Under the pieces are notes generated by a model. It was given only the letters and a program-made list of their open reading frames with translations. It was not told where the DNA came from and did no database searches. DNA of 52,994 bases from a virus (lineage: Duplodnaviria; Caudoviricetes): positions 1 to 52,994 of the IMG/VR virus record IMGVR_UViG_3300034104_003611. One strand, given 5' to 3'. The position numbers and the translations under genes were made by a program. This document shows, piece by piece, positions 1 through 52,994 of the stretch (position 1 is its first letter; each line of letters begins with the position of its first letter).

Positions 1-13
1 GGTGTTTCGCAGG
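1..13 (+). repeat. 13-bp terminal direct repeat GGTGTTTCGCAGG, left copy (candidate cos end or circular overlap)
   Basis: Identical to 52982-52994; lies directly upstream of the operon carrying the GpA-type terminase. Confidence 0.85.
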
Positions 14-34: not shown

Positions 35-127
35 CGCCTATCGGGTAGGTTTCCCGCGAATCCCCGCCTATTCGTTGGAAACCGGTGGATCGGCGCCCCT
101 ATAGTTTCCACTGAACGGTTTCCACTG
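35..127. promoter_or_regulatory. cosB-like / late promoter region with short repeats
   Basis: GTTTCCACTG at 104-113 and 118-127, GGTTTCC near 48, inverted GGAAACC at 77-83, CGCCTAT at 35 and 65, and a -10-like TATAGT at 100-105. Confidence 0.45.
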
Positions 128-138
128 GGTAATTCGGG

Positions 139-891
139 ATGAGATCTACCCTGACGCCCGCCATGGCGAAGCGCATTGAGCTATGGCCTGTCAGCAAACT
201 CGTCGCCTACGACAAGAACCCCCGCACCCACAGCCGTGCGCAGGTCTCCCAGCTGGCGGCGTCCATCGTGGAGTTCGGGTTCATCAACCCGATCCTGGTG
301 GACAGCGATGCCGGGATGATTGCGGGGCACGGCCGGTTGGCCGCGGCCAAGGAGCTGGGCCTGACGGAGGTGCCGGTGGTGGTCTTGGACCACCTCTCGC
401 AGGCGCAGAAGCGGGCCTACGTCATCGCGGACAACAAGCTGGCGGAGCTGGCCGGTTGGGACATGGACCTGCTGGCCGGCGAGATGGCCGACCTGCGCGA
501 CTTTGACTTTGACCTGGAGCTGACCGGCTTCTCGGATGCGGAGCTGGGCGGCCTGCTGGACGACCTGGACACCAACGTCCCCACGCCGGTGTTCAACGCT
601 CCGGTGCCCACCATGCCGGCCGCGGCTGGCGCCTCGCCCATCCCTTCAGCTGACACCACGGCGGCCGTTCCTCCCGCCGCTCCCGCCAGCTACGGGGATG
701 AGGATGAGGATGAGGAGGATGACACGTTCACCCTCCCGCCAGCCGCGACCCGCGTGGTGCAGCTGTTCATGAGCCTGGACCAGCACACTGAGTGGGGGCG
801 GATGGTTGACCGCCTGAACAAGCACTACGGCACCAGCAATCAGACCGACTGCGTGTTCGCGGCGCTGAAGGATGTGCTGGAGGGCCTGTGA
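139..891 (+). CDS. ParB/Srx N-terminal domain protein with acidic linker and small C-terminal domain; no methyltransferase domain
   Basis: ParBc motifs NPRTH, SIVEFGFINPILVD, IAGHGRLAAA and AYVIADNKL. Confidence 0.88.
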   Translation: MRSTLTPAMAKRIELWPVSKLVAYDKNPRTHSRAQVSQLAASIVEFGFINPILVDSDAGMIAGHGRLAAAKELGLTEVPVVVLDHLSQAQKRAYVIADNKLAELAGWDMDLLAGEMADLRDFDFDLELTGFSDAELGGLLDDLDTNVPTPVFNAPVPTMPAAAGASPIPSADTTAAVPPAAPASYGDEDEDEEDDTFTLPPAATRVVQLFMSLDQHTEWGRMVDRLNKHYGTSNQTDCVFAALKDVLEGL

Positions 892-1793
892 AGATCCTGA
901 CCGCTCCTGTTGAGCTCCCCGATGAGGAGGTGGACCACCTGGCTGGTCACTTCCTGACCCCGGAGCACTACGACCTGCTGGTGGAGGGCGAGAGCTGCCG
1001 GGTGAACAAGCCTGACGGCTCCCCCCTCCTGGTCTACGTCCGCAACGCCATCCCAACGGAGCTGGGCGCCGCGGCCTACGGGATCCTGACGGACACCATC
1101 GACTACGGCGACCAGGGGAGCCGCAACCGCGGCATCGCCGGTGGGTATGACGAGAACGGCAACCTGGCGGTCTACCGGCCCACGCTGAAGGGCACCCGGA
1201 GCAACACCCGCGTGTCAGCCAATCCGGTGCGCAGCGCGATCATCGGCTACTTCGACCGGTACACCCGGATGCCGTTCTGCCGGCTGTGCAACTACACACG
1301 GGACAACCCGGAGCAGTGGGCGGCGCTCCAGCCCTACATCCGGCACGTGGACCGGGTGTTCGCGGAGCACCTACCGGAGCAGTACGCCAGGCAGCGGGAC
1401 ATTGCGGACCGCACCAGCCAGGACTTCGTGATCAAGGACACCGCCTTCACCACCATCACGGTGAATGAGAGCTGGCGGACCGCCACGCACAAGGATGCCG
1501 GGGACTTCCGCGATGGCTTCGGCGTGATGGCGTGCCTCACGTCCGGATCATTCCAGGGCGGCCACCTGGTCATGCCGAAGTACCGGGTGGGCGTGGCGCC
1601 TACGTCCTGTGACGTGCTGCTGTTTGACGTTCACCAGTGGCACGGCAACACCGCGATGGTGGGCAACCCCAAGCGGTTCCGCCGGCTCACGCAGGTGTTC
1701 TACTACCGCGAGAAGATGATCCACTGCGGCACCGCGGTGGAGGAGCTGGACCGGGCCAAGAACCGCAAGCCTGGTGACCCGCTGTGGGATTGA
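888..1793 (+). CDS. TET/JBP-family 2-oxoglutarate/Fe(II) dioxygenase
   Basis: FTTITVN strand, HxD motif (THKDAGD), distal His (DVHQWHGNT) and 2OG-binding Arg (RLTQVFYYRE); GTGA overlap with the ParB-like gene. Confidence 0.88.
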   Translation: MKILTAPVELPDEEVDHLAGHFLTPEHYDLLVEGESCRVNKPDGSPLLVYVRNAIPTELGAAAYGILTDTIDYGDQGSRNRGIAGGYDENGNLAVYRPTLKGTRSNTRVSANPVRSAIIGYFDRYTRMPFCRLCNYTRDNPEQWAALQPYIRHVDRVFAEHLPEQYARQRDIADRTSQDFVIKDTAFTTITVNESWRTATHKDAGDFRDGFGVMACLTSGSFQGGHLVMPKYRVGVAPTSCDVLLFDVHQWHGNTAMVGNPKRFRRLTQVFYYREKMIHCGTAVEELDRAKNRKPGDPLWD

Positions 1794-2878
1794 CCGAGCA
1801 GCTATCGGCGTTGCGACCGGGCCTGGACTTCCGGCTGCCGGAGCTCCGCAGGGGAGTGTTCCACCAGTTCTACCAATTCCACCTGAAGTACCGGGCGCAC
1901 CCGGGTGCCGTCTACTACGTGCTCCCCTTCCTGGCGGAGCAGCAGGGCTGGACGGCAGAGGAGGCGCTGTGGTTCGCCTTCCTCAATGGCAACACCCAGC
2001 ACCCCGTAACCAGCTGGATCCTCCACCGAAGGTTCCCGGGCCTGGATGCGGCGGAGCCGATGCTGGAGTGGTACCGGGAGAACTACGCCCGGTTGTCCTT
2101 TGACACGGACCGCCGGCACCACAAGAAGATGCTGCCGCAAGCGGTGGAGGGCTACCGCAAGCTGCTGCGCGGCCGCTCCCAGGCGGAGCTGTGGGGCGAG
2201 GCTGCGCAACGTGGCTTCCGGGGCATCTGGGAGGTGGCGACCGCCATCCCGTCCTTTGGCCGGCTGTCAGCGTTCAGCTTCAGCGAGTACCTGCGCATCA
2301 GCGGCGTGGCGTTCGACTGCGACACGCTGTTCCTGGATGACCGCTCCGGCTCCAAGTCACACCGCAACGGCCTGTGCAAGGTGCTGGGGCGTGACGACCT
2401 GGACTGGCACTCCAGCAACCCGGGCTTTGACGGGACCTACTCCCGCGGCACGCTGAACTGGCTGGAGGTGGAGGGCGCAAGGATCCTGGAGGAGGCCCGG
2501 GAGCTGGCTGCCGGCACCGACTACGAGCGCGACGTGAGCTACTTCACGCTGGAGTCGGCGCTGTGCACCTACAAGTCCTGGCACCGGGTGAACCGGCGCT
2601 ACCCCAACGTCTACAACGACATGTTCCATGACCGGATTCGGGCCACTCAGGCCCGCTGGCCCGGGGAGGATTTGGGCGTGTTCTGGGATGCGCGGCGCCG
2701 CTACCTCCCGGATTACCTGCGGCTGGAGGACAACCCGCACGACCCCGGCTGCGTCCCGCTCAAGCAGAACCATTACCGGCTGACCGGCCAAGTAATCATG
2801 ATGGACCGCGACTACCCCGAGTTCCGCAACGACTTCAACGATGCGGTGCGTGACCGGGTCTTCCCCCGCTGGAGGTAG
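1784..2878 (+). CDS. Amino acid:DNA transferase (aGPT-Pplase2 family, HhH-glycosylase-like fold)
   Basis: Motifs FDTDRRH, FGRLSAFSFSEYL, GSKSHRNGL and FTLESALCTYKS..RRYPNVYND; context between TET and PLP/kinase genes. Confidence 0.8.
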   Translation: MGLTEQLSALRPGLDFRLPELRRGVFHQFYQFHLKYRAHPGAVYYVLPFLAEQQGWTAEEALWFAFLNGNTQHPVTSWILHRRFPGLDAAEPMLEWYRENYARLSFDTDRRHHKKMLPQAVEGYRKLLRGRSQAELWGEAAQRGFRGIWEVATAIPSFGRLSAFSFSEYLRISGVAFDCDTLFLDDRSGSKSHRNGLCKVLGRDDLDWHSSNPGFDGTYSRGTLNWLEVEGARILEEARELAAGTDYERDVSYFTLESALCTYKSWHRVNRRYPNVYNDMFHDRIRATQARWPGEDLGVFWDARRRYLPDYLRLEDNPHDPGCVPLKQNHYRLTGQVIMMDRDYPEFRNDFNDAVRDRVFPRWR

Positions 2879-2882
2879 ACCC

Positions 2883-3929
2883 ATGCGCACCATCTTCCCG
2901 GTTCAGTCCCTCGCCCGCTCCCAGGTGCGGTGGGAGGAGTACCTGAACAACCTCACGCCCATCACCCGCGTGAACGGCCGCGCATACAAGCGCGAGGATT
3001 TCTTCGCCCCGCTGGGCTACGGCGGCATCAACGGCTCCAAGCTCCGCCAGCTGGTCTACCTGGTGGACCGCTACCGGCGGCAAGGCGGCCGTGCCGGCCT
3101 GATCACTGGGGCCTCCGTGCTCAGCCCGCAGATCAGCATGGCCGCGCTGGTGGCTGCGCACTATGAGCTGCCGGCGCTGATGGTGCTGGGCGGCAGCAAG
3201 CCCGAAACGTCCATCAAGCACGAGAACGTCGCCATCGCTGCTCGAGCCGGCGCCACCTTCAGCTACGTGCCGGTGGGCTTCAACCCAACGCTCCAGCGGT
3301 CCGTGGGCAAGCTGGCCCAGGAGCCGCAGCTCAAGGACTATTTCCGCCTCCACTACGGCATCACCACCCCGGAAGCGGCCGCGGCCTGGGATGTGGCGGA
3401 GTTCCATGCGGTGGGCGCCCCACAGGCCCGGAACATCCCGGACGACATTGAGCACCTGATCATGCCGGCTGGCTCGTGCAACTCCTGCACGTCCGTCCTG
3501 CTGGGAATCGCCACGCACCGGCCCAAGGCGCTCCGCAAGGTGACGCTGCTGGGGATCGGTCCCACCCGGCTCCGGTGGATTGAGCAGCGGATGGAGAGCA
3601 TCTACCAGGCGTCCGGCGTGGACGTGATGGGCCTGTTCCGCCCCCGCTACCACCAGCACCCGGAGCTGGAGCCGGCGCACCGCGGTGATGCGCCCTACGA
3701 GCTGGAGCACTACGACCTCCACTCCACCGGCTACGTGAAGTACGCCGACAAGAAGCCGTTCAACCTGGATGGGATTGATTTCCACCCGACCTACGAGGGC
3801 AAGTGCCTCACCTACATGGCGGAGCACCGGGACACGTTCTCGGAGTGGTGGGAGGGCGACGGCAAGACCCTGTTCTGGATCGTCGGCTCCAAGCCCACCG
3901 CCGGCGCCATGACCCGCCACCTTCAGTGA
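2883..3929 (+). CDS. PLP-dependent enzyme (fold type II, ACC deaminase/D-Cys desulfhydrase-like), probable decarboxylase of an amino-acid-modified base
   Basis: YKREDFF..GGINGSKLRQ (Schiff-base Lys), PAGSCNS phosphate loop and FHPTYEGK; ATG at 2883 follows the upstream stop. Confidence 0.82.
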   Translation: MRTIFPVQSLARSQVRWEEYLNNLTPITRVNGRAYKREDFFAPLGYGGINGSKLRQLVYLVDRYRRQGGRAGLITGASVLSPQISMAALVAAHYELPALMVLGGSKPETSIKHENVAIAARAGATFSYVPVGFNPTLQRSVGKLAQEPQLKDYFRLHYGITTPEAAAAWDVAEFHAVGAPQARNIPDDIEHLIMPAGSCNSCTSVLLGIATHRPKALRKVTLLGIGPTRLRWIEQRMESIYQASGVDVMGLFRPRYHQHPELEPAHRGDAPYELEHYDLHSTGYVKYADKKPFNLDGIDFHPTYEGKCLTYMAEHRDTFSEWWEGDGKTLFWIVGSKPTAGAMTRHLQ

Positions 3930-3930
3930 G

Positions 3931-4464
3931 ATGGAGCTGCTGTACCTGATTGGCCCGCCGGGAGCGGGCAAGACCACGCTGCTGGAGAACGCATTGGCGG
4001 GCCGTGAGCGGATTGAGCGGGACAAGCCGCTGGCGCATGAGGAGCTCCCGGAGCTGAATGCCGCCATCCTTGGCCGCCGCCGGCCGCCATTCGGCGGAAC
4101 CGACACGCTCCCCATGAACATCGCCCGCACGGCCGAGAGCTGGATCCGCTCCCGTCCGTTCCAGCTGGTGATTGGTGAGGGTGACCGGCTGGCCTACCCC
4201 GCGTTCTTCACCGCTGCGGTGGAGGCCGGCTACCAGCTCCGGCTGATCTACCTGGGCCTCCCGTCCAAGACTGCTGCGGAGCGGCGTGCTGCCCGGGCGC
4301 ACCAGCACGGCACCGGGCTTCAGAATCCACAGTGGGTAACGGGCCGGGTGACCAAGGCGCAACGCATCGCGCAGGAGTGGGGAGCGGTGATGATCTACGC
4401 CTCGCAGTCGCCGGAAGCCATGACCCGTGAACTGCTGGACGCCGTACCGGCGCTGCGTGCATGA
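3931..4464 (+). CDS. P-loop kinase, probable 5-hydroxymethyl-pyrimidine DNA kinase
   Basis: Walker A GPPGAGKTT, then GGTDTLPM and IGEGDRL; context in a base-modification operon. Confidence 0.78.
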   Translation: MELLYLIGPPGAGKTTLLENALAGRERIERDKPLAHEELPELNAAILGRRRPPFGGTDTLPMNIARTAESWIRSRPFQLVIGEGDRLAYPAFFTAAVEAGYQLRLIYLGLPSKTAAERRAARAHQHGTGLQNPQWVTGRVTKAQRIAQEWGAVMIYASQSPEAMTRELLDAVPALRA

Positions 4465-5138
4465 GTGAACCCCTCAGCCTGCGCGGCTTTGCCGAATCCC
4501 TGGACCCGCCGGTGTCGCACACCGCGGTGCGCAAGGCGATTGAGGCCGGCCACATCCCGCCAGAGGCGCTGATCTACGACGACAAGGGCCACCGCAAGAT
4601 CGCGGACCCGGAGCTGGCCGCACGGTCGTGGAAAAAGAGCGTGCTGCCCTACGACCGCGGCCGCGGCAAGAAGCTGGGCCCGAAGCCGGATGAAGCGCAG
4701 CCACCGGAGCGGTTTGACTCCGCCGAGGAGCGTGCGCTGAGCCGGGAGCTCCTGGCGGAGGAGCGCGAGGAGCTGCCCGAGGAGCCCGAGGAGGTGGAGC
4801 AACGGGCGGCCGCCAGCGTCCCATCCACGCAGGATGCGGTGCCGCCCTACGCCCGCTCTCGCGCCATCCGGGAGGCATTCGCAGCTCAGATGGCCAAGCT
4901 GGAGTATCAGGAGCGTGCTGGGCAGCTGGTCTCCGCCAATGAGGTGAAGATCAAGTGGTTCGGTGAAGCCCGCCGGATCCGTGATGCACTGCTGAACGTC
5001 CCCGCACGCATCACCGACCAGCTGGCCGGATTGGTGGGCGAGGTCTCACCCGAGAAGCGGCACGCAATCCTGCTGCTGCTCCAACAGGAGCTCAATGTCG
5101 TATTGGAGGAACTGAGCGATGGTGCTGGCGAACGCTGA
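4461..5138 (+). CDS. terS: Terminase small subunit (Nu1-like)
   Basis: N-terminal HTH-like SLRGFA..VSHTAVRKAI; C-terminal AKLEYQERAGQLV..RDALLNVPAR; overlaps terL. Confidence 0.8.
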   Translation: MSEPLSLRGFAESLDPPVSHTAVRKAIEAGHIPPEALIYDDKGHRKIADPELAARSWKKSVLPYDRGRGKKLGPKPDEAQPPERFDSAEERALSRELLAEEREELPEEPEEVEQRAAASVPSTQDAVPPYARSRAIREAFAAQMAKLEYQERAGQLVSANEVKIKWFGEARRIRDALLNVPARITDQLAGLVGEVSPEKRHAILLLLQQELNVVLEELSDGAGER

Positions 5139-6990
5139 CCGTGATCTGGTCCCCAGCTTTCGCGCTGGGCTACGCCCCGACCCCATCTTGACCGTGAGCG
5201 AGTGGGCGGATGAGCACAGGATGCTCTCCCAGCGGGCATCGGCGGAGCCGGGCAAGTGGCGCACGGAGCGCACGCCGTTCCTGCGCGAGATCATGGACTG
5301 CCTCAGCACCACCTCCCCCGTTCAGCGGGTGGTGTTCATGGCGGGTGCGCAGGTCGGCAAGACGGAGTGCGGCAACAACTGGCTGGGTTACATCATTGAC
5401 GCCACGCCGGGACCGTCGTTGTGCGTGATGCCGACGGTGGACATCGCCAAGCGGTTCTCCAAGCAACGCCTCAACCCGCTGATTGAGGAGTGTCCGCGGC
5501 TCCGGGAGCGGGTGCGGCCGCCGCGTGAACGGGACAGCGGCAACAGCCTCTTCAGCAAGGAGTTCCCCGGTGGGATCTTGATGATCGGCGGGGCCAACTC
5601 CGGTGCGGGCCTCCGCTCCATGCCCATCAAGAACCTGTTCTGTGATGAGGTGGACGCCTACCCGGTGGACCTGGACGGTGAAGGTGACCCGGTGAGCCTG
5701 GCGGAACGCCGCACCACCACCTTCAGCCGGCGCAAGGTGTTCCTGTGTTCCACCCCAACCATCAAGGACTTCAGCCGGATTGAGGCGGAATACCTGGCCA
5801 GCGATCAGCGGCGGTACTTCGTCCCGTGCCCGGACTGCGGCCACATGCAGTGGCTCCAGTTCAGCAACATCCGCTGGCACGACGACGACCCCAAGACCGC
5901 GGCCTACTGCTGCGAGGAATGCGGCGTGCTCATCCCCGAGCGCCACAAGACGGAGATGCTGGCCAAGGGTGAATGGCGGGCTACCGCTCCGTCAGACGGC
6001 ACCACCGCCGGCTTCCACCTCAGCTCCCTCTACTCCCCCCTGGGCTGGAAGAGCTGGGCGGACATTGTGGCGGAGTTCATGAAGGCCAAGTCCGACGCGC
6101 CGATGCTCAAGACCTGGATCAACACCGTCTTGGGCGAGACCTTTGAGGACAACTACGCCAACAAGGTGGGCGCGTCCGCGCTGCTGGAGCGGGTGGAGCT
6201 GTACGAGCCACGGGTGGTGCCGGATGGCGGCCTGGCGCTCACTGTGGGCGTGGACGTTCAGGACAACCGCTTGGCCGTGTCCGTCTGGGCATGGGGCCGC
6301 GAGGAGGAGGGCTGGCTGGTTGATCACCAGGAGATCTACGGCGACCCCGGGCGGCCGGAGCTGTGGCGGCAGCTGGATGAGATCATCCTGGAACCATTCC
6401 CGCACGCCAGCGGCAGCACCCTGCTGCCGGATGTGGTCTGCATCGACTCCGGCGGTCACTTCACCCATGAGGTCTACCAGTACGCCCGGGAGCGGCGCAG
6501 CCAAGGCGTCATCCCCATCAAAGGCGCCAACACCCGCAACAAGCCGGTGATTGGCAAGCCCAGCAAGGTGGACGTGAATGCCCGCGGCCGGGTGTTGAAG
6601 GGTGGAGTGGAGCTCTACACCGTGGGCACGGACACCGCGAAGGTGACGCTGTTCGGCCGGCTGAAGCACAACGAGCCCGGCGCCGGCTACCTCCACTTCC
6701 ACAACGCCTGCACGGAGGAGTATTTCGCGCAGCTGACCTCTGAGAAGCAGCAGGTGCGGTTCGTGCGCGGCTTCGCCATCCGGGAGTTCGTCAAGAAGCC
6801 GAGCGAGCGGAACGAGGCACTGGACACGCTGGTCTACGCCTATGCCGGATTGAATCGCATGTACCAGCTAAGAGATCGCAGAACTATCTGGGATCAGCTG
6901 GAAAAACGCATAAAAGCGCCAGTAGAGAAGCGGCGGCCGTCATCGCTAAGATCAGGAGGAGCTCAGCGCAGCTTCGTCCGCAACTGGTGA
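5119..6990 (+). CDS. terL: Terminase large subunit, lambda GpA family
   Basis: TVSEWAD, AQVGKTE, DEVDAYP, STPT, CPDC/CEEC zinc motif, GVDVQ, IDSGG and RNEALD. Confidence 0.96.
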   Translation: MVLANADRDLVPSFRAGLRPDPILTVSEWADEHRMLSQRASAEPGKWRTERTPFLREIMDCLSTTSPVQRVVFMAGAQVGKTECGNNWLGYIIDATPGPSLCVMPTVDIAKRFSKQRLNPLIEECPRLRERVRPPRERDSGNSLFSKEFPGGILMIGGANSGAGLRSMPIKNLFCDEVDAYPVDLDGEGDPVSLAERRTTTFSRRKVFLCSTPTIKDFSRIEAEYLASDQRRYFVPCPDCGHMQWLQFSNIRWHDDDPKTAAYCCEECGVLIPERHKTEMLAKGEWRATAPSDGTTAGFHLSSLYSPLGWKSWADIVAEFMKAKSDAPMLKTWINTVLGETFEDNYANKVGASALLERVELYEPRVVPDGGLALTVGVDVQDNRLAVSVWAWGREEEGWLVDHQEIYGDPGRPELWRQLDEIILEPFPHASGSTLLPDVVCIDSGGHFTHEVYQYARERRSQGVIPIKGANTRNKPVIGKPSKVDVNARGRVLKGGVELYTVGTDTAKVTLFGRLKHNEPGAGYLHFHNACTEEYFAQLTSEKQQVRFVRGFAIREFVKKPSERNEALDTLVYAYAGLNRMYQLRDRRTIWDQLEKRIKAPVEKRRPSSLRSGGAQRSFVRNW

Positions 6991-29267: not shown

Positions 29268-29453
29268 ATGGACCGCTTTGCTGACTACATCGCTTTGATC
29301 GTTGCCATTCACGGTGTGGCCGTGGTGATCGTCAACATGACGCCCACCCCCAAGGACAACGAGGCGCTGACCACCTACACCAGGCTGGGCGTGAAGCTGT
29401 ACCGGGCGCTGGAGATCCTGGCCGGCATCATCACCCCCCTGGCTAAGCGATGA
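29268..29453 (+). CDS. Putative holin
   Basis: 61 aa, hydrophobic, TPTPKDN; ATGA overlap with the endolysin. Confidence 0.65.
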   Translation: MDRFADYIALIVAIHGVAVVIVNMTPTPKDNEALTTYTRLGVKLYRALEILAGIITPLAKR

Positions 29454-30511
29454 GCGCCCGCCTCACCGAGTACGTCAAGCACACCAACCTGGCCCTGGCG
29501 CATCACCTGGCGTTCTGGAACCGGGTGGAGCAGCTCCTGCCGCCGGACGCGCTGAAGGATGGCGGTGAGCTCCGCTCCATGTGGCTGGCGGCCGCTCCCC
29601 CCAAGACCCCGCTGAGCCTGGAACCGGGGCTGAAGCTGATCCGGGAGTTTGAGGGCTGCGAGCTGGAGGCTTACGACGACGGCGTGGGCGTCTGGACCAT
29701 CGGCTGGGGCAACACCCGCCACATTGACGGCACCCCGGTCAAGAAGGGCGACAAGATCAGCCGGGAGCTGGCGGACGAGATGCTGTCCGCCACGGTGGAG
29801 CATCAGGTCATCCCGGCGCTGTCCAAGAGCATCCCCTACTGGGCGGAGATGAGCGCCAACCAGCGCGGTGCCCTGACCTCCTTTGCCTACAACCTGGGCT
29901 GGCATTTCTACGGGCGGGAGGACTTCAAGACCATCTCTGCCGCGCTGCGTGAGAGGCGGTGGAAGGATGTGCCGGCGGCCATGATGCTCTACCGCAACCC
30001 CGGCTCCAACGTGGAGGCTGGCCTGAAGCGGCGGAGGGCGGCGGAGGGCAACCTGTGGGCGTCCGGCATCCAGCAGCAGCAGGGCGGCGTCCGATTCACC
30101 CCCTCCTCCCCGTTCAGCACCCGGGTCACCCCGCACATCACCTACGGCGAGTTTGCGCTGGGCCAGGAGGCGCGGCGCTTCACCGCTCAGCATCAGTGCG
30201 ACACCGCGGTGGAGCTGGCGGAGTTCATGGAGCGTGCGCGGCGCGAGTTCGGCGGCAAGGCCGTGCAGATCACCTCCGGCTACCGTCCCGCAGCCATCAA
30301 CCGCTCCGTGGGTGGCGCCAGTGGCTCCGAGCACCTCTACGACGCTCCCGGAGTGGGAGCGGTGGACTTCCTGATTGACGGCGTGGACATCTACACGCTT
30401 CAGGCATGGTGCGATAAGTTCTGGCCGTACAGCCTGGGATACGGCGCCCCCAAGGGCTTCGTCCACCTGGGCATCCGCAATGGTCGCCCCAGGGTGCGCT
30501 GGGACTACTGA
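29450..30511 (+). CDS. Endolysin: GH24 lysozyme plus peptidase M15 domain
   Basis: FEGCELEAYDDGVGVWTIGWG and ALTSFAYNLG; ITSGYR..N..VGGASGSEHL, AVDF and FVHLG. Confidence 0.9.
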   Translation: MSARLTEYVKHTNLALAHHLAFWNRVEQLLPPDALKDGGELRSMWLAAAPPKTPLSLEPGLKLIREFEGCELEAYDDGVGVWTIGWGNTRHIDGTPVKKGDKISRELADEMLSATVEHQVIPALSKSIPYWAEMSANQRGALTSFAYNLGWHFYGREDFKTISAALRERRWKDVPAAMMLYRNPGSNVEAGLKRRRAAEGNLWASGIQQQQGGVRFTPSSPFSTRVTPHITYGEFALGQEARRFTAQHQCDTAVELAEFMERARREFGGKAVQITSGYRPAAINRSVGGASGSEHLYDAPGVGAVDFLIDGVDIYTLQAWCDKFWPYSLGYGAPKGFVHLGIRNGRPRVRWDY

Positions 30512-30668: not shown

Positions 30669-32375
30669 TCACCCCAAGGCATGATCCTTCCTGACCACGA
30701 GATCCGCCGCCTGTGCCTTCAACACAGCCTGGTGAAGCCGTTCCGCGAGGAGCTCCTGAACCCGGCCTCGCTGGATCTGACCCTCGGGGAGCGTCTGCTG
30801 GTGGAGCAGGAGGAGCACGAGTGTCTCCAGATCCACAGCATTGCTGACCGGACTGCTGACGACCCGTTCCTGCTGATGCCCGGGCAATTCGTCCTGGCGG
30901 AGACTGCTGAGACCTTCAACCTGCCCAACCACGTGGCGGGGCAGTTCGTGCTCAAATCCAGCCGTGCGCGGGAGGGCCTGGAGCACCTCCTGGCTGGGTA
31001 CTGCGACCCCGGGTGGAACGGCAGCCGGCTCACCCTGGAGCTCCAGAACGCCAGGCGCTACCACCCCGTCCGGCTGTGGCCGGGGATGAAGATTGGCCAG
31101 ATGGTGTTCCACCTGATCTCCGGCGAGGTTGAGCGGAGCTACGCCGTCACCGGCCGGTACAACGGGGATGGAGCCGTCACCGCCAGCAAGGGCTGAGGTG
31201 ATCAACCGAGTGGTCTTAGCGGCGTGCGCGGCCGCGGCCTCGGTGATGAGGTGTGCGTAGCGGTTGGTGGTGGCGGCGCTGGTGTGACCCAGCAGCTGCC
31301 CCACGGCCGGCAGGTTGAGTCCGCCGTAGCTGATGGCGTAGGAGGCGAAGCTATGGCGCAGGTCATGGACACGCAGGTTCTTGATCTGCGCGACCTCGAG
31401 GACCTGAAGCCAGAGCCGGCGGTAGCCGTTGAAGGGCTTGGTGGGATCCTGACCGGGAATGATCCAGGGGCTGTCCGAGAACTGACGCAGCTGGATCAGC
31501 AGGTCAATGGCCTCCGGCGGCAGGTGGATGGTGCGGTGCTCCCCCGTGCGGCCTCCCGTCTTGTGGTGCTCCGGCGGGATGGCAATGACCCCGGCGTCCA
31601 TCTCCACCCATTCCCACCGGCATTCCATGATCTCGCGGAGCCTGGCGCCGGTGAAAAGCAGAAGGCGCACGAGGCACGCGAAAAGCCACCGCTGAGGCGT
31701 GTTGACCCACTGGTCCAGGGCTTGGCCTAGGCGAACGATTTCAGCGGGCCGGAGGTAGCGCCGACGCGCCTTGTCCTGCTTCACCTTCACCAGCCGGCAG
31801 GGATTGGTGTGTTGCGGCCGCAGGCCCCAGAGCTCCGCCTGGTTGAAGGCGGCGCTGAGCATCATGCGGATCTTGGTGATGTTGAACTCGGTGCCTCCCG
31901 TCTCGCGCTTGTGCGCCAGCAGGTCCGCAATGTGCGCCGGCGTGACCTCCGGCACCCGCAGCGCCCCCATGAAGGGCAGGACGTGGAGGCGCCAGATGAC
32001 CTCGTAGTTGGCCTGGGTGCCCTTGGCGAGCGTGGGGTAGTGCCGCCGCTCCAGGAGCTCCTGAAACTCGCGCAGCGTGGGGCTGTTGCGCAGCTGCTGG
32101 CGGGCGGTGGTGAGATCCTCCCCCTTGGCCGCGGCACCCAGGATGACGTGCGCCTGCTCCCGGGCCAGCTCCGGCGCAATCACGTCTGCCCGTCCGATCT
32201 TGTGCTGCCGCTCCTTGCCGCTGGGCAGGTCATAGCGCAGGTACCAGGTCTTCACTCCGGAGGGCAGGACCAGCACGCCGAGTCCGGGCACCTTGCCGTC
32301 CCGCAGCCAGTATTTCTTGGAGCTGGGCCTGGCATTGGCGATGGTTGGTTTGGTCAGTGAAGGCTTCTGCTGCAT
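30669..32375 (-). CDS. int: Tyrosine integrase with arm-binding domain; catalytic domain ends near 31200 but the frame stays open to 30669
   Basis: LRDGKVPGLGV..GVKTW, TGARLRE, HDLRHSFAS and LLGH..TTNRYAH. Confidence 0.93.
   Translation of the reverse strand: MQQKPSLTKPTIANARPSSKKYWLRDGKVPGLGVLVLPSGVKTWYLRYDLPSGKERQHKIGRADVIAPELAREQAHVILGAAAKGEDLTTARQQLRNSPTLREFQELLERRHYPTLAKGTQANYEVIWRLHVLPFMGALRVPEVTPAHIADLLAHKRETGGTEFNITKIRMMLSAAFNQAELWGLRPQHTNPCRLVKVKQDKARRRYLRPAEIVRLGQALDQWVNTPQRWLFACLVRLLLFTGARLREIMECRWEWVEMDAGVIAIPPEHHKTGGRTGEHRTIHLPPEAIDLLIQLRQFSDSPWIIPGQDPTKPFNGYRRLWLQVLEVAQIKNLRVHDLRHSFASYAISYGGLNLPAVGQLLGHTSAATTNRYAHLITEAAAAHAAKTTRLITSALAGGDGSIPVVPAGDGVAPLNLAGDQVEHHLANLHPRPQPDGVVAPGVLELQGEPAAVPPGVAVPSQEVLQALPRTAGFEHELPRHVVGQVEGLSSLRQDELPGHQQERVVSSPVSNAVDLETLVLLLLHQQTLPEGQIQRGRVQELLAERLHQAVLKAQAADLVVRKDHALG
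30681..31196 (+). CDS. dcd: dCTP deaminase
   Basis: NPASLDLTLG, LKSSRAREG, AGYCDPGWNG.LTLEL and GMKIGQMVF; the likely start is ATG 30681. Confidence 0.9.
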   Translation: MILPDHEIRRLCLQHSLVKPFREELLNPASLDLTLGERLLVEQEEHECLQIHSIADRTADDPFLLMPGQFVLAETAETFNLPNHVAGQFVLKSSRAREGLEHLLAGYCDPGWNGSRLTLELQNARRYHPVRLWPGMKIGQMVFHLISGEVERSYAVTGRYNGDGAVTASKG

Positions 32376-33894: not shown

Positions 33895-34173
33895 TTAGCG
33901 AGCCGTCCCGTTCAATCGGTCCGCTACCAGCTGGGCGTACCCGGCGATGTCATGCCAGGAATCGGCGTAGTCCGGGTCACCGTTGATGATCCGGCCGATC
34001 TTGTGGCAGATCATCTCCAGGGCCTCCTGCTGGTCGTCCGCCAGGGTGCGGTTGCGGATCTCCAGCTGGTCACGGATCACCCCTTTCAGCTCCTGCGTCA
34101 CCAGAGCGTGGCCGATGAAGGTGCCGTAGCGGCTCCCCCGCTCCTCCAGCGTGGCGGTGAGGTCAGTCGTCAT
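33895..34173 (-). CDS. Conserved phage protein (DUF6378-like)
   Basis: TLEERGSRYG..EALEMICHKIGRIINGD..DSWHDIAGYAQL. Confidence 0.75.
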   Translation of the reverse strand: MTTDLTATLEERGSRYGTFIGHALVTQELKGVIRDQLEIRNRTLADDQQEALEMICHKIGRIINGDPDYADSWHDIAGYAQLVADRLNGTAR

Positions 34174-34798
34174 GGAAGGCTGCCTCAGCGATGACGGGGA
34201 ACAACTCGGTGAAGATCTCGCGGCAGGCCTGGGCGACCTGACGGTGCTCCAGTTGGGTGCCCGGGTCCGTCCGCACATTGATGTAGTGAATCCAGGAGCG
34301 CAGGGTGCCGTGCATGTAGAGAGTGGTGGGCGTACACAGCGGCAGGATCCGGCGTGCGGTCTCCCGGGCCACTCCCTGGCGCAGGAGCTCCCAGTAGAGC
34401 TCATAGGCACCGTTGATCACCCGGTCCGCGGCGCTGTGCATGACCCGCTGCACCTCCAGGTCCAGGTCGTCATGGCTGGCCTGGCGGTTGGCCTCATCCT
34501 GCCTCCGGAAGGCCGGCACCTGTGCCCGGGAGCTCCGGGCATAGCGGGTGCTGAACTCCTGGAAGCTGAACGAGCGGTGGCGGAGGATCTGGGCCGCGAT
34601 GTCCCGCTCCGTTGAGATCTCCACGCACATGGAGGCCATCTCAAACGGGCTCCAGTGCTCATGGCGGATGAGGTAGCGGAGCAGCTTGGGAGCGGTCTCC
34701 TGGTTGTCCTGGTTGGTTGGGTTGGACACCCGGGCCATCTTGACGATCAACCGCTCAGCGTCTGGCGTGGCGTGGATCAACGTGACGCTCACGCCCAC
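34163..34798 (-). CDS. thyX: FAD-dependent thymidylate synthase
   Basis: HWSPFE, QILRHRSFSFQEFSTRY and GTQLEHR. Confidence 0.95.
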   Translation of the reverse strand: MGVSVTLIHATPDAERLIVKMARVSNPTNQDNQETAPKLLRYLIRHEHWSPFEMASMCVEISTERDIAAQILRHRSFSFQEFSTRYARSSRAQVPAFRRQDEANRQASHDDLDLEVQRVMHSAADRVINGAYELYWELLRQGVARETARRILPLCTPTTLYMHGTLRSWIHYINVRTDPGTQLEHRQVAQACREIFTELFPVIAEAAFHDD

Positions 34799-39542: not shown

Positions 39543-39863
39543 TCATGGCCCTGGATCAAAGGTGGAACATTCAGACGCAAAGGTGCCCCCGGCTTCAGGT
39601 ATCTCCAACCCGCAGCCGTCCGGACCCCAGTGCTTGCACTCCGTGCAGTAGGAGCTGGTCCCGGCTCCCACCAGGCCCCGAATCCGCTCACGGGTCGCCC
39701 GGAGCTCCTTGAGCTCATCCAGCAGCTCACGCTTCACCTCGTAGACCGTGGTGATGTGGCCGCAGTTGGAGCACCTCCGGCGGATCCTCCGGGCATCACC
39801 TCCCATGGTGGGGTGGCTCTCAGTGGAGTTGAACCTGGGGTAGCGGCACACCGGGCAGCTCAC
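39543..39863 (-). CDS. Zinc-ribbon protein (NrdR N-terminus-like)
   Basis: CPVC..IRRRCSNCGHITTVYE and a second CTECKHW..C cluster. Confidence 0.65.
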   Translation of the reverse strand: MSCPVCRYPRFNSTESHPTMGGDARRIRRRCSNCGHITTVYEVKRELLDELKELRATRERIRGLVGAGTSSYCTECKHWGPDGCGLEIPEAGGTFASECSTFDPGP

Positions 39864-42797: not shown

Positions 42798-43477
42798 AGC
42801 ACCACCTCCCGCCGCTCCGTCGGCGTGGTCCAGAAGTATTCATCCTCCCCACCCAGCCGTCCCCACTTGGGAGCGTGCTCCACGTTGAAGTAACGGGTGC
42901 TGACCTTGAAATCGGGCGTCAGGAGCTCCTCCGGCGTGAGTGAGCTGTCCACCATCCGGCAGCGGTTGTTGGGGTACGCACCGATCTGCCCGTTGGCCAG
43001 CACCACCACGTTGTGGGACTTGTGCTCATCCGGGACCTCAGCGAACTCCGCGTCGATCTCGTTGATGTGCGGGTGGTAGTTGTCGAGCGTGAACAGGTAG
43101 CTCCCGGGCATCACGCCATGGGAGCGGGTCCGGACCTCAAACGCCATGTTGGCGATCAAGGTCTTGTGGATCACGGTGATGCCGGTGTCGAAGCTGTTCC
43201 AGAACTGGAGGTCAGCCAGCGGCAGGTCCGGTGACGGTGGCGGCGGGCCGTCTGGGTAGTCGCTGTCCCATGCCAGGAAGGCACTGATGGGCAGCTTGTC
43301 GTAGAGGGCGCCGTACTGGGTGAGGTAGGTCTCAAAGTAGAGCGCACGGCCGGGGAGTGATTTGGCCGCCACCCAGTAGCCCGGTGTGTACTCACCGTGG
43401 CCGCGGCGGAGGTCATAGAGGTACTCCTTGCGCACCCAGACCTTCACGGGTGGGACATTGATCAGCAGCGTGCTCAT
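42794..43477 (-). CDS. Conserved hypothetical protein recalled from cyanophages
   Basis: VWVRKEYLYD..GHGE, YGALYDKLPISAF and EHKSHN..NGQIGAYPNNRCR; recognition from memory, not searched. Confidence 0.65.
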   Translation of the reverse strand: MSTLLINVPPVKVWVRKEYLYDLRRGHGEYTPGYWVAAKSLPGRALYFETYLTQYGALYDKLPISAFLAWDSDYPDGPPPPSPDLPLADLQFWNSFDTGITVIHKTLIANMAFEVRTRSHGVMPGSYLFTLDNYHPHINEIDAEFAEVPDEHKSHNVVVLANGQIGAYPNNRCRMVDSSLTPEELLTPDFKVSTRYFNVEHAPKWGRLGGEDEYFWTTPTERREVVL

Positions 43478-52845: not shown

Positions 52846-52851
52846 CCAGCC

Positions 52852-52966
52852 CTAGTCCCTCTAGGCGCCCCCAGCCCCGCTAGAGCTCCGCCACTAGGCC
52901 CTCGCCCCTAGTCCCCCTAGGGCTCTCCGCCCCCTCTAGGCCCCCTAGGGCTGCGGGTCCCTCTAG
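52852..52966. repeat. CTAG array (9 copies in 115 bp)
   Basis: CTAG at 52852, 52861, 52880, 52894, 52908, 52917, 52936, 52945 and 52963. Confidence 0.85.
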
Positions 52967-52981
52967 GGGCCTCGGCCTGCA

Positions 52982-52994
52982 GGTGTTTCGCAGG
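52982..52994 (+). repeat. 13-bp terminal direct repeat, right copy
   Basis: Identical to 1-13. Confidence 0.85.

What the first reader, a model, noticed from the sequence alone, without database searches (positions are those of the whole stretch)
139..4464. Candidate fully post-replicative thymine hypermodification pathway started by a TET/JBP dioxygenase in a temperate phage
Seen: five overlapping or abutting genes (ParB-like, TET/JBP, aGPT-Pplase2 amino-acid:DNA transferase, PLP enzyme, P-loop kinase). I recognised no dUMP hydroxymethylase, DNA polymerase, C5 cytosine methyltransferase or radical-SAM enzyme elsewhere in the genome. Established: in lytic phages such as Pseudomonas M6 and Salmonella ViI, 5hmU enters DNA from the nucleotide pool; it is then phosphorylated by a DNA kinase, substituted with Gly or Ser by the transferase, and decarboxylated by a PLP enzyme. 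Characterised phage TETs oxidise 5mC made by a linked methyltransferase, while kinetoplastid JBP oxidises T in DNA. Inference: here TET oxidises T to 5hmU in finished DNA, and the other three enzymes give an amine-bearing base. Without a radical-SAM isomerase this would be a ViI-like aminoethoxymethyl-U or a decarboxylated-glycine product. Such gene neighbourhoods have been predicted computationally, but I know of no biochemical demonstration of this exact route.
Basis: partly seen in the sequence, partly recalled or inferred. Interest (0 to 1): 0.9.

Follow-up and report, generated by a model that had tools for sequence, protein, structure and literature searches.

The report
Phage thymine hypermodification cassette, TET-started
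A probably temperate phage carries a five-gene operon that most likely oxidises thymine in finished DNA and then builds an amine-bearing base on it, a pathway type already proposed in print and whose first step has been shown for related phage enzymes.

Summary
The five genes are real, intact and tightly packed at 139-4464, directly upstream of the terminase genes. They encode a ParB-like protein, a TET/JBP dioxygenase, an amino-acid:DNA transferase, a PLP enzyme and a P-loop kinase. All five are under purifying selection against a close relative (dN/dS 0.13-0.21).

Six-frame HMM searches of the whole 52,994-bp genome found no C5-methyltransferase, ThyA-type enzyme, radical-SAM enzyme, PolA or PolB. 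It looks like an ordinary dTMP synthase.

The central idea is not new. Lee et al. (PMC8989533) proposed TET_JBP-started thymidine hypermodification. O'Toole et al. 2026 (PMC13229309) showed that phage TET-like enzymes with a neighbouring ParB make 5hmU in DNA and need that ParB as activator.

New details here:
- The PLP enzyme is a full-length homologue of Salmonella phage ViI gp226, the O-seryl-thymidine decarboxylase (38% identity). With no radical-SAM isomerase, this points to a ViI-like 5-(2-aminoethoxy)methyl-U product.
- The kinase belongs to PF18751, not to the families of the two characterised 5-hmdU DNA kinases I tested.

Verdict: a new member of a known kind, of moderate interest.

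The parts
1..13 (.). 13-nt sequence identical to the last 13 nt of the record (52982-52994); probable cohesive (cos) end
   Evidence: exactly 2 matches in the window, at 1-13 and 52982-52994; 0 of 100 shuffles reach 2; the relative L001 carries the 13-mer once, at the position that joins our two ends. The terminase is lambda gpA-type.
139..891 (+). ParB-like protein, probable activator of the dioxygenase: N-terminal ParB/CTPase-fold domain, short helical segment, disordered acidic/Pro-Ala linker, small helical C-terminal domain, no HTH DNA-binding domain recognised
   Evidence: PF02195 at residues 14-89; phrog_620 and phrog_498; invariant N27, R29, G63, H64, R66 and a conserved C-terminal block; pLDDT about 85 for residues 10-101, below 50 for 146-200, and 75-89 for the helices 213-249; best PDB folds are Noc and the ParB proteins of M. 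xanthus and C. crescentus.
888..1793 (+). TET/JBP-family 2OG/Fe(II) 5-methylpyrimidine dioxygenase, predicted ParB-dependent thymine dioxygenase
   Evidence: PF12851, E 3.4e-22; invariant H201, D203, H249, H252, R266 and C280, with 21 residues beyond C280; pTM 0.85, with a low-confidence insert at 76-112; best folds are NgTET1, CcTet and human TET2.
1784..2878 (+). Amino-acid:DNA transferase (AADT, clade-2 aGPT-Pplase)
   Evidence: PF18724, E 1.3e-16. E257 and C261 are invariant and align with the Glu/Cys pair of M6 gp51 and ViI gp247; 27% identity to ViI gp247, E 6e-27; 49% identity to Mycobacterium phage Bane2.
2883..3929 (+). Fold-type-II PLP enzyme, homologue of ViI gp226 (O-seryl-thymidine decarboxylase). 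The longest ORF starts at 2841; the likely start is 2883.
   Evidence: 38% identity over almost the full length to ViI gp226, E 6e-81, with K67 aligned to ViI K92 in the shared GINGSKLRQ motif; no significant match to M6 gp52 (E 0.05); the only PDB hit is 1J0A; 348 phage records match, mostly Ackermannviridae-type hosts.
3931..4464 (+). P-loop kinase of family PF18751, predicted 5-hmdU DNA kinase (function inferred from context only)
   Evidence: PF18751, E 7e-31. Walker A motif GPPGAGKT. M6 gp54 is PF18748 and ViI gp243 is PF18747, while Bane2 gp4 is PF18751; 403 phage records match, all actinobacteriophages. M6 gp54 and ViI gp243 do not hit this gene.
4461..6990 (+). Terminase small (4461-5138) and large (5119-6990) subunits, translationally coupled to the cassette
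   Evidence: phrog_57. GpA_ATPase and GpA_nuclease, E about 1e-97 to 1e-99. ATGA overlap of the kinase and TerS genes.
34163..34798 (-). ThyX flavin-dependent thymidylate synthase; not part of the cassette, but it bears on the source of 5hmU
   Evidence: PF02511, E 4.5e-48. E 5e-59 to chains 2CFA/4FZB, deposited as 'thymidylate synthase', with the RHRSFSFQEFSTRY motif matched.
30669..32375 (-). Tyrosine integrase with arm-binding domain; the only evidence for a temperate lifestyle
   Evidence: PF00589, PF13356 and PF14659; 86%-identical copy in the relative G002; no S24 repressor domain found.

Best explanation
This is a late-operon cassette for fully post-replicative thymine hypermodification.

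**Step 1 (shown for the enzyme class, inferred for this copy).** The TET/JBP-type dioxygenase, switched on by the ParB-like protein encoded just upstream, oxidises thymine in double-stranded DNA to 5-hydroxymethyluracil.

**Step 2 (inferred from context only).** The PF18751 P-loop kinase phosphorylates the hydroxymethyl group.

**Step 3 (chemistry shown for the family, donor inferred).** The amino-acid:DNA transferase uses its Cys261/Glu257 pair to displace the phosphate and attach an amino acid.

**Step 4 (inferred from 38% identity to ViI gp226).** The PLP enzyme decarboxylates the attached amino acid. PLP chemistry needs a free alpha-amine and no radical-SAM isomerase is present, so the amino acid is most likely attached through its side chain. 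By analogy with phage ViI this means serine through oxygen, which would give 5-(2-aminoethoxy)methyl-deoxyuridine. I put about 0.45 on that exact product, given that the pathway is right.

**Setting.** The genes are co-transcribed with the terminase genes next to the probable cos end. Modification would therefore occur late, on DNA copied by the host replisome from ordinary dTTP, which the phage ThyX helps to supply. The likely benefit, protection from restriction, is inferred from work on ViI and M6.
For: **Gene order and families**

**Dioxygenase (TET)**
- H201, D203, H249, H252 and R266 are invariant in 18 sequences.
- The fold model has pTM 0.85, and its best matches are NgTET1, CcTet and TET2.
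- C280 is invariant and is followed by a 21-residue tail. PMC13229309 section 11 reports an extended C-terminus beyond C280 as exclusive to ParB-dependent enzymes.

**ParB-like protein**
- Its layout of NBD, short helical part, roughly 55-residue disordered linker and C-terminal domain matches the description of ParB176.
- Of 17 related loci examined (my non-redundant choice from the 31 found), 15 have an ORF ending at the TET start. Fourteen of these align with ours.
- The complex prediction gave weak support only. The score was 0.46 against a best control of 0.00. The partner pLDDT was at least 70 and the runs agreed in at least 48% of contacts. The pass mark was reached by 58 of 80 solved complexes and 2 of 110 mismatched pairs. 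At a score of 0.60 or under it was reached by only 7 of those 80, and by both mismatches.

**Absence of other 5hmU or 5mC sources**
- No C5-methyltransferase, ThyA-type enzyme, radical-SAM enzyme, PolA or PolB in six frames.

**Downstream enzymes**
- AADT: E257 and C261 are invariant. PMC8989533 section 17 reports that the conserved Cys and its neighbouring Glu are essential in M6 gp51 and ViI gp247.
- PLP enzyme: 38% identity to ViI gp226, E 6e-81, with the Lys conserved.

**Selection**
- Purifying selection acts on all five genes against L001, with dN/dS 0.13-0.21, compared with 0.09-0.12 for the terminase genes.

**Literature**
- PMC13229309: ParB-dependent enzymes gave 0.5-1% 5hmU alone and up to about 25-35% with the cognate ParB in E. 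coli DNA. The subclass is 'consistently linked' with P-loop kinases and AADTs.
- PMC8989533: proposes TET_JBP as the 5hmU source in contigs that lack a dUMP hydroxymethylase.
Against: - No activity, nucleoside or virion data exist for this phage, which is known only as a metagenome-derived record.
- The kinase is not in the families of the two characterised 5-hmdU DNA kinases I tested (M6 gp54 is PF18748, ViI gp243 is PF18747). Neither of them detects it by tblastn, so step 2 rests on context alone.
- The AADT is only 27% identical to the ViI serine transferase. It is closer (43-49%) to AADTs in cassettes that have no PLP gene, so the donor is uncertain.
- PF18724 members can also transfer diamines directly (PMC13458397, abstract and section 33).
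- The PLP enzyme's Pfam score is below the curated cut-off. So is that of ViI gp226 itself.
- Several ParB-dependent enzymes tested in PMC13229309 gave under 5% 5hmU.
- Those authors could not trap a ParB-enzyme complex, and my complex prediction is only weak support.
- I could not place this enzyme in the paper's clade C1 with their sequences, because the supplements are closed.
Confidence: 0.75

Rival explanations
1. The pathway starts the same way (T to 5hmU to phospho-5hmU), but the end product differs. Either the transferase attaches something other than serine (another side-chain-linked amino acid, or a diamine), or the fold-type-II PLP enzyme does chemistry other than decarboxylation. 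The final base would then not be 5-(2-aminoethoxy)methyl-U.
For: - The AADT is only 27% identical to ViI gp247.
- Its nearest relatives (Bane2 gp3 at 49%, L027 at 43-45%) sit in cassettes without this PLP gene.
- The family includes glycine, serine, putrescine and 1,3-diaminopropane transferases (PMC13458397).
- Related ParB-TET cassettes carry quite different tailoring genes: an Asp/Asn-hydroxylase-like protein, GATase with GNAT, and rSAM-SPASM with a TET-associated glycosyltransferase.
- The PLP gene occurs in only 2 of the 31 related TET loci, both near-identical relatives.
Against: - The PLP enzyme aligns over nearly its whole length with the characterised decarboxylase ViI gp226, and the PLP lysine is conserved.
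- Of the two characterised DNA-acting PLP decarboxylases, it matches the one that works without a radical-SAM partner.
Confidence: 0.35
2. The dioxygenase acts on 5-methylcytosine laid down by a host methyltransferase, and the cassette builds a cytosine modification instead.
For: - Characterised clade A/B phage TETs oxidise 5mC (PMC13229309 section 5).
- Both in vitro-characterised T-dioxygenases in that paper also support some 5mC oxidation (abstract).
- The fold search cannot tell T enzymes from 5mC enzymes.
Against: - No C5-methyltransferase is found anywhere in the genome.
- The enzyme has the ParB partner and C-terminal tail of the T-oxidising, ParB-dependent subclass.
- The downstream AADT and PLP enzymes belong to families so far characterised only on 5hmU-derived bases.
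- Host Dcm-type sites would be sparse.
Confidence: 0.05
3. 5hmU enters DNA before replication. The ThyX homologue has become a dUMP hydroxymethylase that feeds 5hmdUTP to the host polymerase, and the TET is accessory.
For:
- ThyX and the integrase are both found in the relative G002.
Against: - The protein matches the PDB chains 2CFA/4FZB, deposited as 'thymidylate synthase', at E 5e-59, and the RHRSFSFQEFSTRY motif is retained. That these chains are the Chlorella virus ThyX is my recollection.
- I know of no ThyX-type hydroxymethylase (recalled, not searched).
- The gene lies 30 kb from the cassette, on the other strand.
- ThyX is absent from 3 of 4 related records searched. One of these, G001, also lacks the integrase and may simply be missing that region.
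- A TET with a dedicated activator would be redundant.
Confidence: 0.03
4. Only the ParB-TET pair matters biologically. Sequence-specific 5hmU is itself the functional mark, with an epigenetic-like regulatory role. The three downstream genes would be inactive or act on another substrate.
For: - PMC13229309 discusses partial, sequence-selective oxidation as more consistent with epigenetic-like regulation (discussion).
- The kinase family is uncharacterised.
Against: - All three downstream genes are intact and keep their catalytic residues.
- They are under purifying selection as strong as on the TET.
- They are translationally coupled within the operon.
Confidence: 0.07

Closest known systems
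ParB-dependent phage T-dioxygenases (5mYOX clade C1, for example 5mYOX176 with ParB176; O'Toole et al., PNAS 2026, PMC13229309)
   Same: - A ParB-like gene lies immediately upstream of a roughly 300-aa TET/JBP enzyme.
- The enzyme has the HxD...H and Arg residues, a poorly conserved insert at about 76-112, and a conserved Cys280 followed by a C-terminal tail.
- The ParB has an NBD, a disordered linker and a CTD, and no DNA-binding domain.
- A P-loop kinase and an AADT are linked, and there is no neighbouring C5-methyltransferase.
   Different: - Activity is untested here.
- I could not compare with the paper's sequences or trees, because the supplements are closed. This record or a close relative may even be among their IMG/VR-derived candidates.
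- The paper reconstitutes only the oxidation step.
- It does not use the words 'temperate' or 'prophage' (0 occurrences each).
Salmonella phage ViI 5-NeOmdU pathway (Lee et al. 2018 recalled; Lee et al. NAR 2021/22, PMC8989533)
   Same: - The chemical logic is the same: 5hmU in DNA, then kinase, then clade-2 AADT, then PLP decarboxylase, with no radical-SAM isomerase.
- The PLP enzyme is 38% identical to gp226, with the lysine conserved.
- The AADT keeps the Glu/Cys pair.
   Different: - ViI gets 5hmU from the nucleotide pool through a dUMP hydroxymethylase, according to PMC8989533; that ViI is a large lytic myovirus is recalled. A DNA polymerase gene is annotated in the ViI stretch I fetched.
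- Here the source is a TET acting on finished DNA.
- The kinase family differs (PF18751 against PF18747 for gp243).
- The AADT is only 27% identical.
- The phage is a 53-kb, integrase-bearing, lambda-type cos phage without a polymerase.
Pseudomonas phage M6 5-NedU pathway (PMC8989533)
   Same: The gene order AADT, PLP enzyme, kinase in one cluster is the same.
   Different: - M6 attaches glycine through nitrogen and needs the radical-SAM isomerase gp53 before decarboxylation. No such gene exists here.
- M6 gp51 and gp52 show no significant similarity to the proteins here.
- M6 has a ThyA-type gene and a PolA.
Left-end cassettes of actinobacteriophages (Mycobacterium phage Bane2 gp1-gp4; Rhodococcus phage Tonitrus, PMC11955845)
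   Same: - The order is (ParB-like), TET, AADT, PF18751 kinase, directly upstream of the terminase at the genome's left end.
- These are the closest AADT (49%) and kinase (about 35%) relatives among cultured phages.
   Different: - They have no ViI-type PLP gene.
- The hosts are Actinobacteria.
- Bane2 gp1 gave no Pfam hit.
- I found no report of their DNA chemistry in my searches.
Kinetoplastid JBP1/2 and base J
   Same: A TET/JBP-family enzyme oxidises T in DNA to 5hmU as the first step towards a bulkier base.
   Different: - The next step there is glucosylation, not phosphorylation and amino-acid transfer.
- There is no ParB partner.
- The relationship is distant (PMC13229309 section 5).

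Membership tests
ParB-dependent phage T-dioxygenase (5mYOX clade C1) | TET/JBP 2OG-Fe(II) dioxygenase domain and fold | tested here: met
   PF12851 at E 3.4e-22, 78.9 bits against a cut-off of 34.9. AlphaFold model pTM 0.85. Best Foldseek hits are NgTET1, CcTet and TET2, E about 1e-12.
ParB-dependent phage T-dioxygenase (5mYOX clade C1) | Iron-binding HxD...H residues and the 2OG-binding Arg | tested here: met
   H201, D203, H249, H252 and R266 are invariant in 18 sequences and were read from the translation. Assigning these residues to metal and 2OG binding is by analogy, not by a structure-based alignment to TET2.
ParB-dependent phage T-dioxygenase (5mYOX clade C1) | Extended C-terminus beyond the last Cys conserved across subclasses (C280 in 5mYOX176) | tested here: met
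   C280 is invariant, and 21 further residues form a helix at 283-292. The defining feature is taken from PMC13229309 section 11. That the two Cys are the same position is inferred from the shared number and context, not from an alignment with 5mYOX176.
ParB-dependent phage T-dioxygenase (5mYOX clade C1) | Variable insertion (vi) domain at about residues 73-118 | tested here: inconclusive
   A poorly conserved, gap-rich, low-pLDDT stretch lies at 76-112. I could not compare it with the paper's vi sequences.
ParB-dependent phage T-dioxygenase (5mYOX clade C1) | Adjacent cognate ParB homologue with NBD and CTD but no DNA-binding domain | tested here: met
   The ParB-like gene overlaps the TET start. 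The model shows an NBD at 10-101, a disordered stretch at 146-200 and a CTD at 213-249. The NBD matches ParB and Noc structures. Of 17 related loci, 15 have an upstream ORF ending at the TET start, and 14 of these align with ours.
ParB-dependent phage T-dioxygenase (5mYOX clade C1) | No neighbouring C5-cytosine methyltransferase | tested here: met
   PF00145 gave 0 matches at E<=1 in six frames of the whole genome.
ParB-dependent phage T-dioxygenase (5mYOX clade C1) | T to 5hmU activity that depends on ParB; placement inside clade C1 with the published sequences | not testable with these tools
   This needs an assay, and the clade sequences are in closed supplements. The complex prediction gave weak support only: 0.46 against a best control of 0.00, with the calibration counts given in the For line.
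Clade-2 aGPT-Pplase / amino-acid:DNA transferase (PF18724) | Family HMM match | tested here: met
   E 1.3e-16, 61.5 bits against a cut-off of 26.2. phrog_3271 at E 2.9e-81.
Clade-2 aGPT-Pplase / amino-acid:DNA transferase (PF18724) | Essential Cys and neighbouring Glu | tested here: met
   E257 and C261 are invariant in an 8-sequence alignment that includes M6 gp51 and ViI gp247. Their essentiality is reported in PMC8989533 section 17.
Clade-2 aGPT-Pplase / amino-acid:DNA transferase (PF18724) | Donor specificity (Ser, Gly or diamine) | not testable with these tools
   Identity is 27% to the Ser enzyme, and there is no significant match to the Gly enzyme.
ViI gp226-type DNA-acting PLP decarboxylase | Full-length homology to a characterised member | tested here: met
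   38% identity, E 6e-81, query residues 11-357. Against M6 gp52 the E-value is 0.05.
ViI gp226-type DNA-acting PLP decarboxylase | PLP-binding lysine (ViI K92) | tested here: met
   K67 lies in GINGSKLRQ, the same motif as in ViI. K92 is named in PMC8989533 section 19.
ViI gp226-type DNA-acting PLP decarboxylase | Decarboxylation of O-seryl-thymidine in DNA | not testable with these tools
   This needs an assay.
Characterised 5-hmdU DNA kinases (PF18748 HMUDK_HMUD1; PF18747 HMUD2) | Membership of either family HMM | tested here: not met
   Our kinase matches PF18751 (E 7e-31), and neither PF18748 nor PF18747 is listed for it. M6 gp54 is PF18748 and ViI gp243 is PF18747. Neither detects our gene by tblastn. 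It may work like a 5-HMUDK but is not a member. ViI gp67 and the SP10, PhiW-14 and PaMx11 kinases were not checked.
Characterised 5-hmdU DNA kinases (PF18748 HMUDK_HMUD1; PF18747 HMUD2) | P-loop (Walker A) motif | tested here: met
   GPPGAGKT lies at residues 8-15.
ThyA-type dUMP hydroxymethylase (pre-replicative 5hmU source) | Thymidylat_synt domain anywhere in the genome | tested here: not met
   PF00303 gave 0 matches. M6 gp58 gave no tblastn hit.
Temperate phage | Integrase; repressor; observed integrated copy | tested here: inconclusive
   An integrase with an arm-binding domain is present. No S24 repressor domain was found, nor a tRNA-derived att site. No integrated close relative was found. 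Distant TET homologues occur on MAG contigs over 140 kb in 5 of 15 loci, but I did not inspect their context.

The most novel reading that the evidence does not exclude
This phage makes a ViI-type aminoethoxymethyl-uracil entirely after replication, from ordinary thymine in DNA copied by the host replisome. It uses a third, uncharacterised family of DNA nucleobase kinase (PF18751).

The ParB-like activator would load at the unique CTAG-repeat array beside cos. Oxidation and hypermodification would then be confined to phage DNA that is about to be packaged. That would solve the self-versus-host targeting problem which a post-replicative system poses for a temperate phage.
Probability: 0.07. Interest if true: 0.75.

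Novelty: new member of a known kind. Interest (0 to 1): 0.35.

Why it matters
If confirmed, this would be a compact five-gene operon that converts plain thymine in any double-stranded DNA into an amine-bearing base, without touching the nucleotide pool or the polymerase.

- It would link the recently shown ParB-activated T-dioxygenases to the kinase, transferase and decarboxylase chemistry that is so far known only from lytic phages feeding 5hmU in through dUMP hydroxymethylase.
- It would assign a function to the PF18751 kinase family. That family is common at the left end of mycobacteriophage genomes, where it is usually annotated as adenylate kinase or small terminase.
- It would give a portable toolkit for enzymatic DNA functionalisation.

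The concept is already in print, however, so the gain is confirmation and detail rather than a new principle.

Tried and rejected
**Searches for close relatives**
- Megablast of the first 8 kb against cultured phages gave only a 61-bp match, in the PLP gene of Pseudomonas phage Cygsa01. There is no close cultured relative.
- A single-sequence scan of bacterial genomes with the TET found no relative.
- A profile scan found 15 distant MAG loci at 34-49% identity. I did not analyse them further, so the host remains unknown.
- The nearest TerL among cultured phages is from Ralstonia prophage fragments, Wolbachia WO and Acidithiobacillus AcaML1, at 48-52% identity. This suggests only a proteobacterial host.
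- A scan of viral contigs with the PLP protein returned only the two near-identical relatives, because single-sequence scans reach close relatives only. I did not repeat it with a profile.

**ThyX as a possible hydroxymethylase**
- I judged this unlikely.
- ThyX's absence from G001 is weak evidence, because G001 also lacks the integrase and may be missing that region.

**CTAG-repeat array as a parS-like site for the ParB-like protein**
- The array is kept in the close relative L001: 6 of the 8 CTAG in that locus lie in the 400 nt upstream of its ParB gene.
- It is not a feature of the 12 more distant ParB-TET loci, which have 0-2 CTAG upstream.
- The published ParBs lack a DNA-binding domain and activate oxidation of E. 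coli DNA.
- A cos or terminase-binding role is at least as likely.

**Other attempts**
- No tRNA or tmRNA genes were found.
- PHROG and Pfam scans of 30 further ORFs added no nucleotide-metabolism or methyltransferase genes. About 25 small ORFs were not scanned individually; they were covered only by the six-frame family searches named above.
- The complex prediction for TET with the ParB-like protein gave weak support only.
- The supplements of PMC13229309 (datasets S1-S10, SI figures S3, S10, S14) and of PMC8989533 could not be seen. They may list this very contig, or show clade membership and gene neighbourhoods that bear on the novelty claim.
- Iyer et al. 2013 (NAR 41:7635) is not held. 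What I say of it comes from Lee et al.'s description and from recall.

Full report
**What is there.** The window is a complete 52,994-bp virus record.

| Coordinates | Protein | Evidence |
|---|---|---|
| 139-891 | ParB-like | PF02195, E 3.4e-8; phrog_620, E 1e-55 |
| 888-1793 | TET/JBP dioxygenase | PF12851, E 3.4e-22 |
| 1784-2878 | Amino-acid:DNA transferase | PF18724, E 1.3e-16 |
| 2841-3929 | PLP enzyme | PALP E 3.3e-5, below Pfam's cut-off; phrog_3650, E 1e-95 |
| 3931-4464 | P-loop kinase | PF18751, E 7e-31 |

The genes overlap or abut and run straight into the small and large terminase genes at 4461-6990. The PLP gene probably starts at 2883, because the close relative aligns only from residue 15. 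Against that relative (L001), all five genes have dN/dS of 0.13-0.21, similar to 0.09-0.12 for the terminase genes. They are therefore maintained as working genes.

**Genome setting.**
- The first and last 13 nt of the record are identical; 0 of 100 shuffles give two copies.
- The relative L001 has this 13-mer once, exactly where our two ends would join.
- Together with the lambda gpA-type terminase, this indicates cohesive ends. The cassette is then the first operon after cos, preceded across the junction by a PrimPol/VapE replication gene and a 261-aa gene.
- The phage has a tyrosine integrase with an arm-binding domain.
- I found no S24-type repressor, no tRNA-derived att site, and no integrated close relative. 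'Temperate' is therefore probable, not shown.

- Six-frame HMM searches of the whole genome gave 0 matches at E<=1 for each of five families. These were C5-methyltransferase (PF00145), ThyA-type thymidylate synthase/hydroxymethylase (PF00303), radical SAM (PF04055), PolA (PF00476) and PolB (PF00136).
- The M6 radical-SAM isomerase, ThyA-like protein and polymerase gave no tblastn hit better than E 0.2.
- That ThyX matches the PDB chains 2CFA/4FZB, deposited as 'thymidylate synthase', at E 5e-59, and keeps the RHRxxSxxxxSxR motif. That these chains are the Chlorella virus ThyX is my recollection.
- I read it as an ordinary dTMP synthase. That fits a phage which puts normal T into its DNA and modifies it afterwards.

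**The dioxygenase and its ParB.**
- In an alignment of 18 TET sequences (ours plus 17 from IMG/VR loci), H201, D203, H249, H252, R266 and C280 are invariant.
- The AlphaFold model (pTM 0.85) has a low-confidence insert at 76-112 and a C-terminal helix after C280.
- Its best PDB matches are NgTET1, CcTet and human TET2.
- The ParB-like protein models as a ParB/CTPase-fold domain (10-101), a helical segment, a disordered linker (146-200) and a two-helix C-terminal domain. It matches Noc and the M. xanthus and C. crescentus ParB structures.
- This is the architecture O'Toole et al. describe for ParB176. The C-terminal tail beyond C280 is what they report as exclusive to ParB-dependent enzymes (PMC13229309 sections 9 and 11).
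- Of 17 related loci examined, 15 have an ORF ending at the TET start. Fourteen of these align with ours, including the conserved C-terminal block.
- A complex prediction gave weak support only. The score was 0.46 against a best control of 0.00, the partner pLDDT was at least 70, and the runs agreed in at least 48% of contacts. The mark was reached by 58 of 80 solved complexes and 2 of 110 mismatches. At 0.60 or under it was reached by only 7 of the 80, and by both mismatches.

**The downstream enzymes.**
- *AADT.* It keeps the Glu/Cys pair (E257, C261), invariant in an alignment with M6 gp51 and ViI gp247. Lee et al. found that pair essential.
  - It is 27% identical to the ViI serine transferase.
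  - It is not significantly similar to the M6 glycine transferase.
  - It is 49% identical to Mycobacterium phage Bane2 gp3.
- *PLP enzyme.* It is 38% identical over nearly its full length to ViI gp226 (E 6e-81). K67 aligns to the PLP lysine K92 of ViI gp226. It is not similar to M6 gp52.
- *Kinase.* It has a Walker A motif but belongs to PF18751. The characterised M6 gp54 and ViI gp243 belong to PF18748 and PF18747 and do not detect it. Its 403 phage homologues are all in actinobacteriophages. There the gene sits next to the terminase and is annotated as adenylate kinase or small terminase.

**Relatives.**
- A viral-contig scan gave 31 loci encoding TET relatives.
- tblastn with our proteins found the following:

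| Protein | Loci with a match, of 31 |
|---|---|
| ParB-like | 19 |
| AADT | 19 |
| Kinase | 7 |
| PLP enzyme | 2 (both about 95%-identical relatives) |

- Many of these loci are cut by contig ends, so the counts are lower bounds.
- Other cassettes carry different tailoring genes between the TET and the kinase. These include an Asp/Asn-hydroxylase-like protein, GATase with GNAT, and rSAM-SPASM with a TET-associated glycosyltransferase.
- This is the combinatorial pattern already described in the literature.

**Literature.**
- Lee et al. (PMC8989533; passages and section 17 read) state that some metavirome contigs lack a dUMP hydroxymethylase. They encode a TET_JBP protein next to the thymidine hypermodification genes instead. 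The authors infer that it converts T to 5hmU in DNA.
- O'Toole et al. (PMC13229309; sections 5, 6, 8, 9, 11, 12, 13 read) show in E. coli and in vitro that phage clade C1/C2 enzymes are T-dioxygenases. The ParB-associated subclass needs its ParB on dsDNA, and it is 'consistently linked' with P-loop kinases and AADTs.
- My searches found no paper that reconstitutes a TET-started pathway through to the final base. That absence holds only for the held library.

**Mechanism.**
1. ParB-activated oxidation of T to 5hmU in finished dsDNA. This is shown for the class and inferred for this copy.
2. Phosphorylation by the PF18751 kinase. This is inferred from context only.
3. Cys/Glu-mediated transfer of an amino acid by the AADT. 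The chemistry is shown for the family; the donor is inferred.
4. Decarboxylation by the gp226-like PLP enzyme. This is inferred.

PLP enzymes need a free primary amine, and M6 needs a radical-SAM isomerase to expose one on N-linked glycine. The absence of such an isomerase here therefore favours a side-chain-linked amino acid, as in ViI. The predicted product is 5-(2-aminoethoxy)methyl-dU. I give the pathway 0.75, and that exact product about 0.45 given the pathway.

**Rivals.**

| Rival | Confidence | Main point |
|---|---|---|
| Different donor or different PLP chemistry | 0.35 | Affects the product only, not the pathway |
| Action on host-made 5mC | 0.05 | No methyltransferase; downstream families characterised only on 5hmU-derived bases |
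| ThyX-derived hydroxymethylase | 0.03 | The ThyX looks canonical |
| Only the ParB-TET pair is functional | 0.07 | Contradicted by selection on the downstream genes |

**Verdict.** The concept is already published, and its first step is demonstrated for the enzyme class. This locus is a new member of a known kind. Its particular points of interest are the ViI-type decarboxylase in a TET-started cassette, an uncharacterised kinase family, and the setting in an integrase-bearing cos phage that relies on the host replisome. Interest 0.35.

Noticed in passing
window 52850-52967: All 9 matches to CYCTAGK in the whole genome lie in this 118-bp stretch just before the right end. Nine of the genome's 15 CTAG lie in the last 155 nt. 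The array is partly kept in the relative L001 but is not seen upstream of ParB in the 12 more distant loci. It could be a terminase or cos-binding site, or a regulatory array.
   Followed up: partly
window 43-127: Three GGTTTCC motifs, including two direct GTTTCCACTG copies and an inverted pair, lie immediately upstream of the ParB-like gene. They are possibly an operator or promoter element, or a cosB-type site.
   Followed up: no
window 1-13 and 52982-52994: A 13-nt terminal direct repeat suggests 13-nt cohesive ends. The record is classed as 'linear' without end repeats.
   Followed up: yes
Mycobacterium phage records H17-H34, for example NC_024145 69922-70476: TET/JBP homologues in many mycobacteriophages are annotated 'queuine tRNA-ribosyltransferase' or 'DpdA-like', and phrog_6059 carries that label. 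Bane2 gp2 in the same position gives a weak Tet_JBP hit. These look like misannotations.
   Followed up: partly
Phage records; M6 gp54 (L033:16686-17249): P-loop kinases next to terminase genes are widely annotated 'terminase small subunit' or 'adenylate kinase'. phrog_800 ('terminase small subunit') matches our kinase. This is probably annotation carried over from neighbouring genes.
   Followed up: no
window 42794-43477 (-): A 227-aa protein has no Pfam hit but matches phrog_3704, labelled 'ferredoxin', at E 6.5e-94. Its function is unclear.
   Followed up: no
window 44140-44475 (-) and 39543-39863 (-): Two small proteins have an NrdR-like zinc ribbon, and one also has an HTH. They are candidate regulators in the early region. 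No S24 repressor was found.
   Followed up: no
window 29450-30511 (+): The endolysin has two catalytic domains, a phage lysozyme and an M15 peptidase.
   Followed up: no
PP179332.1 48261-48321 (Pseudomonas phage Cygsa01): The only megablast hit of the first 8 kb is a 61-bp, 88.5% match inside a 'putative threonine ammonia lyase' of this 166-kb phage. It is a conserved core of the gp226-type PLP gene.
   Followed up: no
L022:7895-10511: A distant ParB-TET locus carries a radical-SAM/SPASM protein and a TET-associated glycosyltransferase downstream of the TET. This suggests a different, sugar-based elaboration of 5hmU.
   Followed up: no
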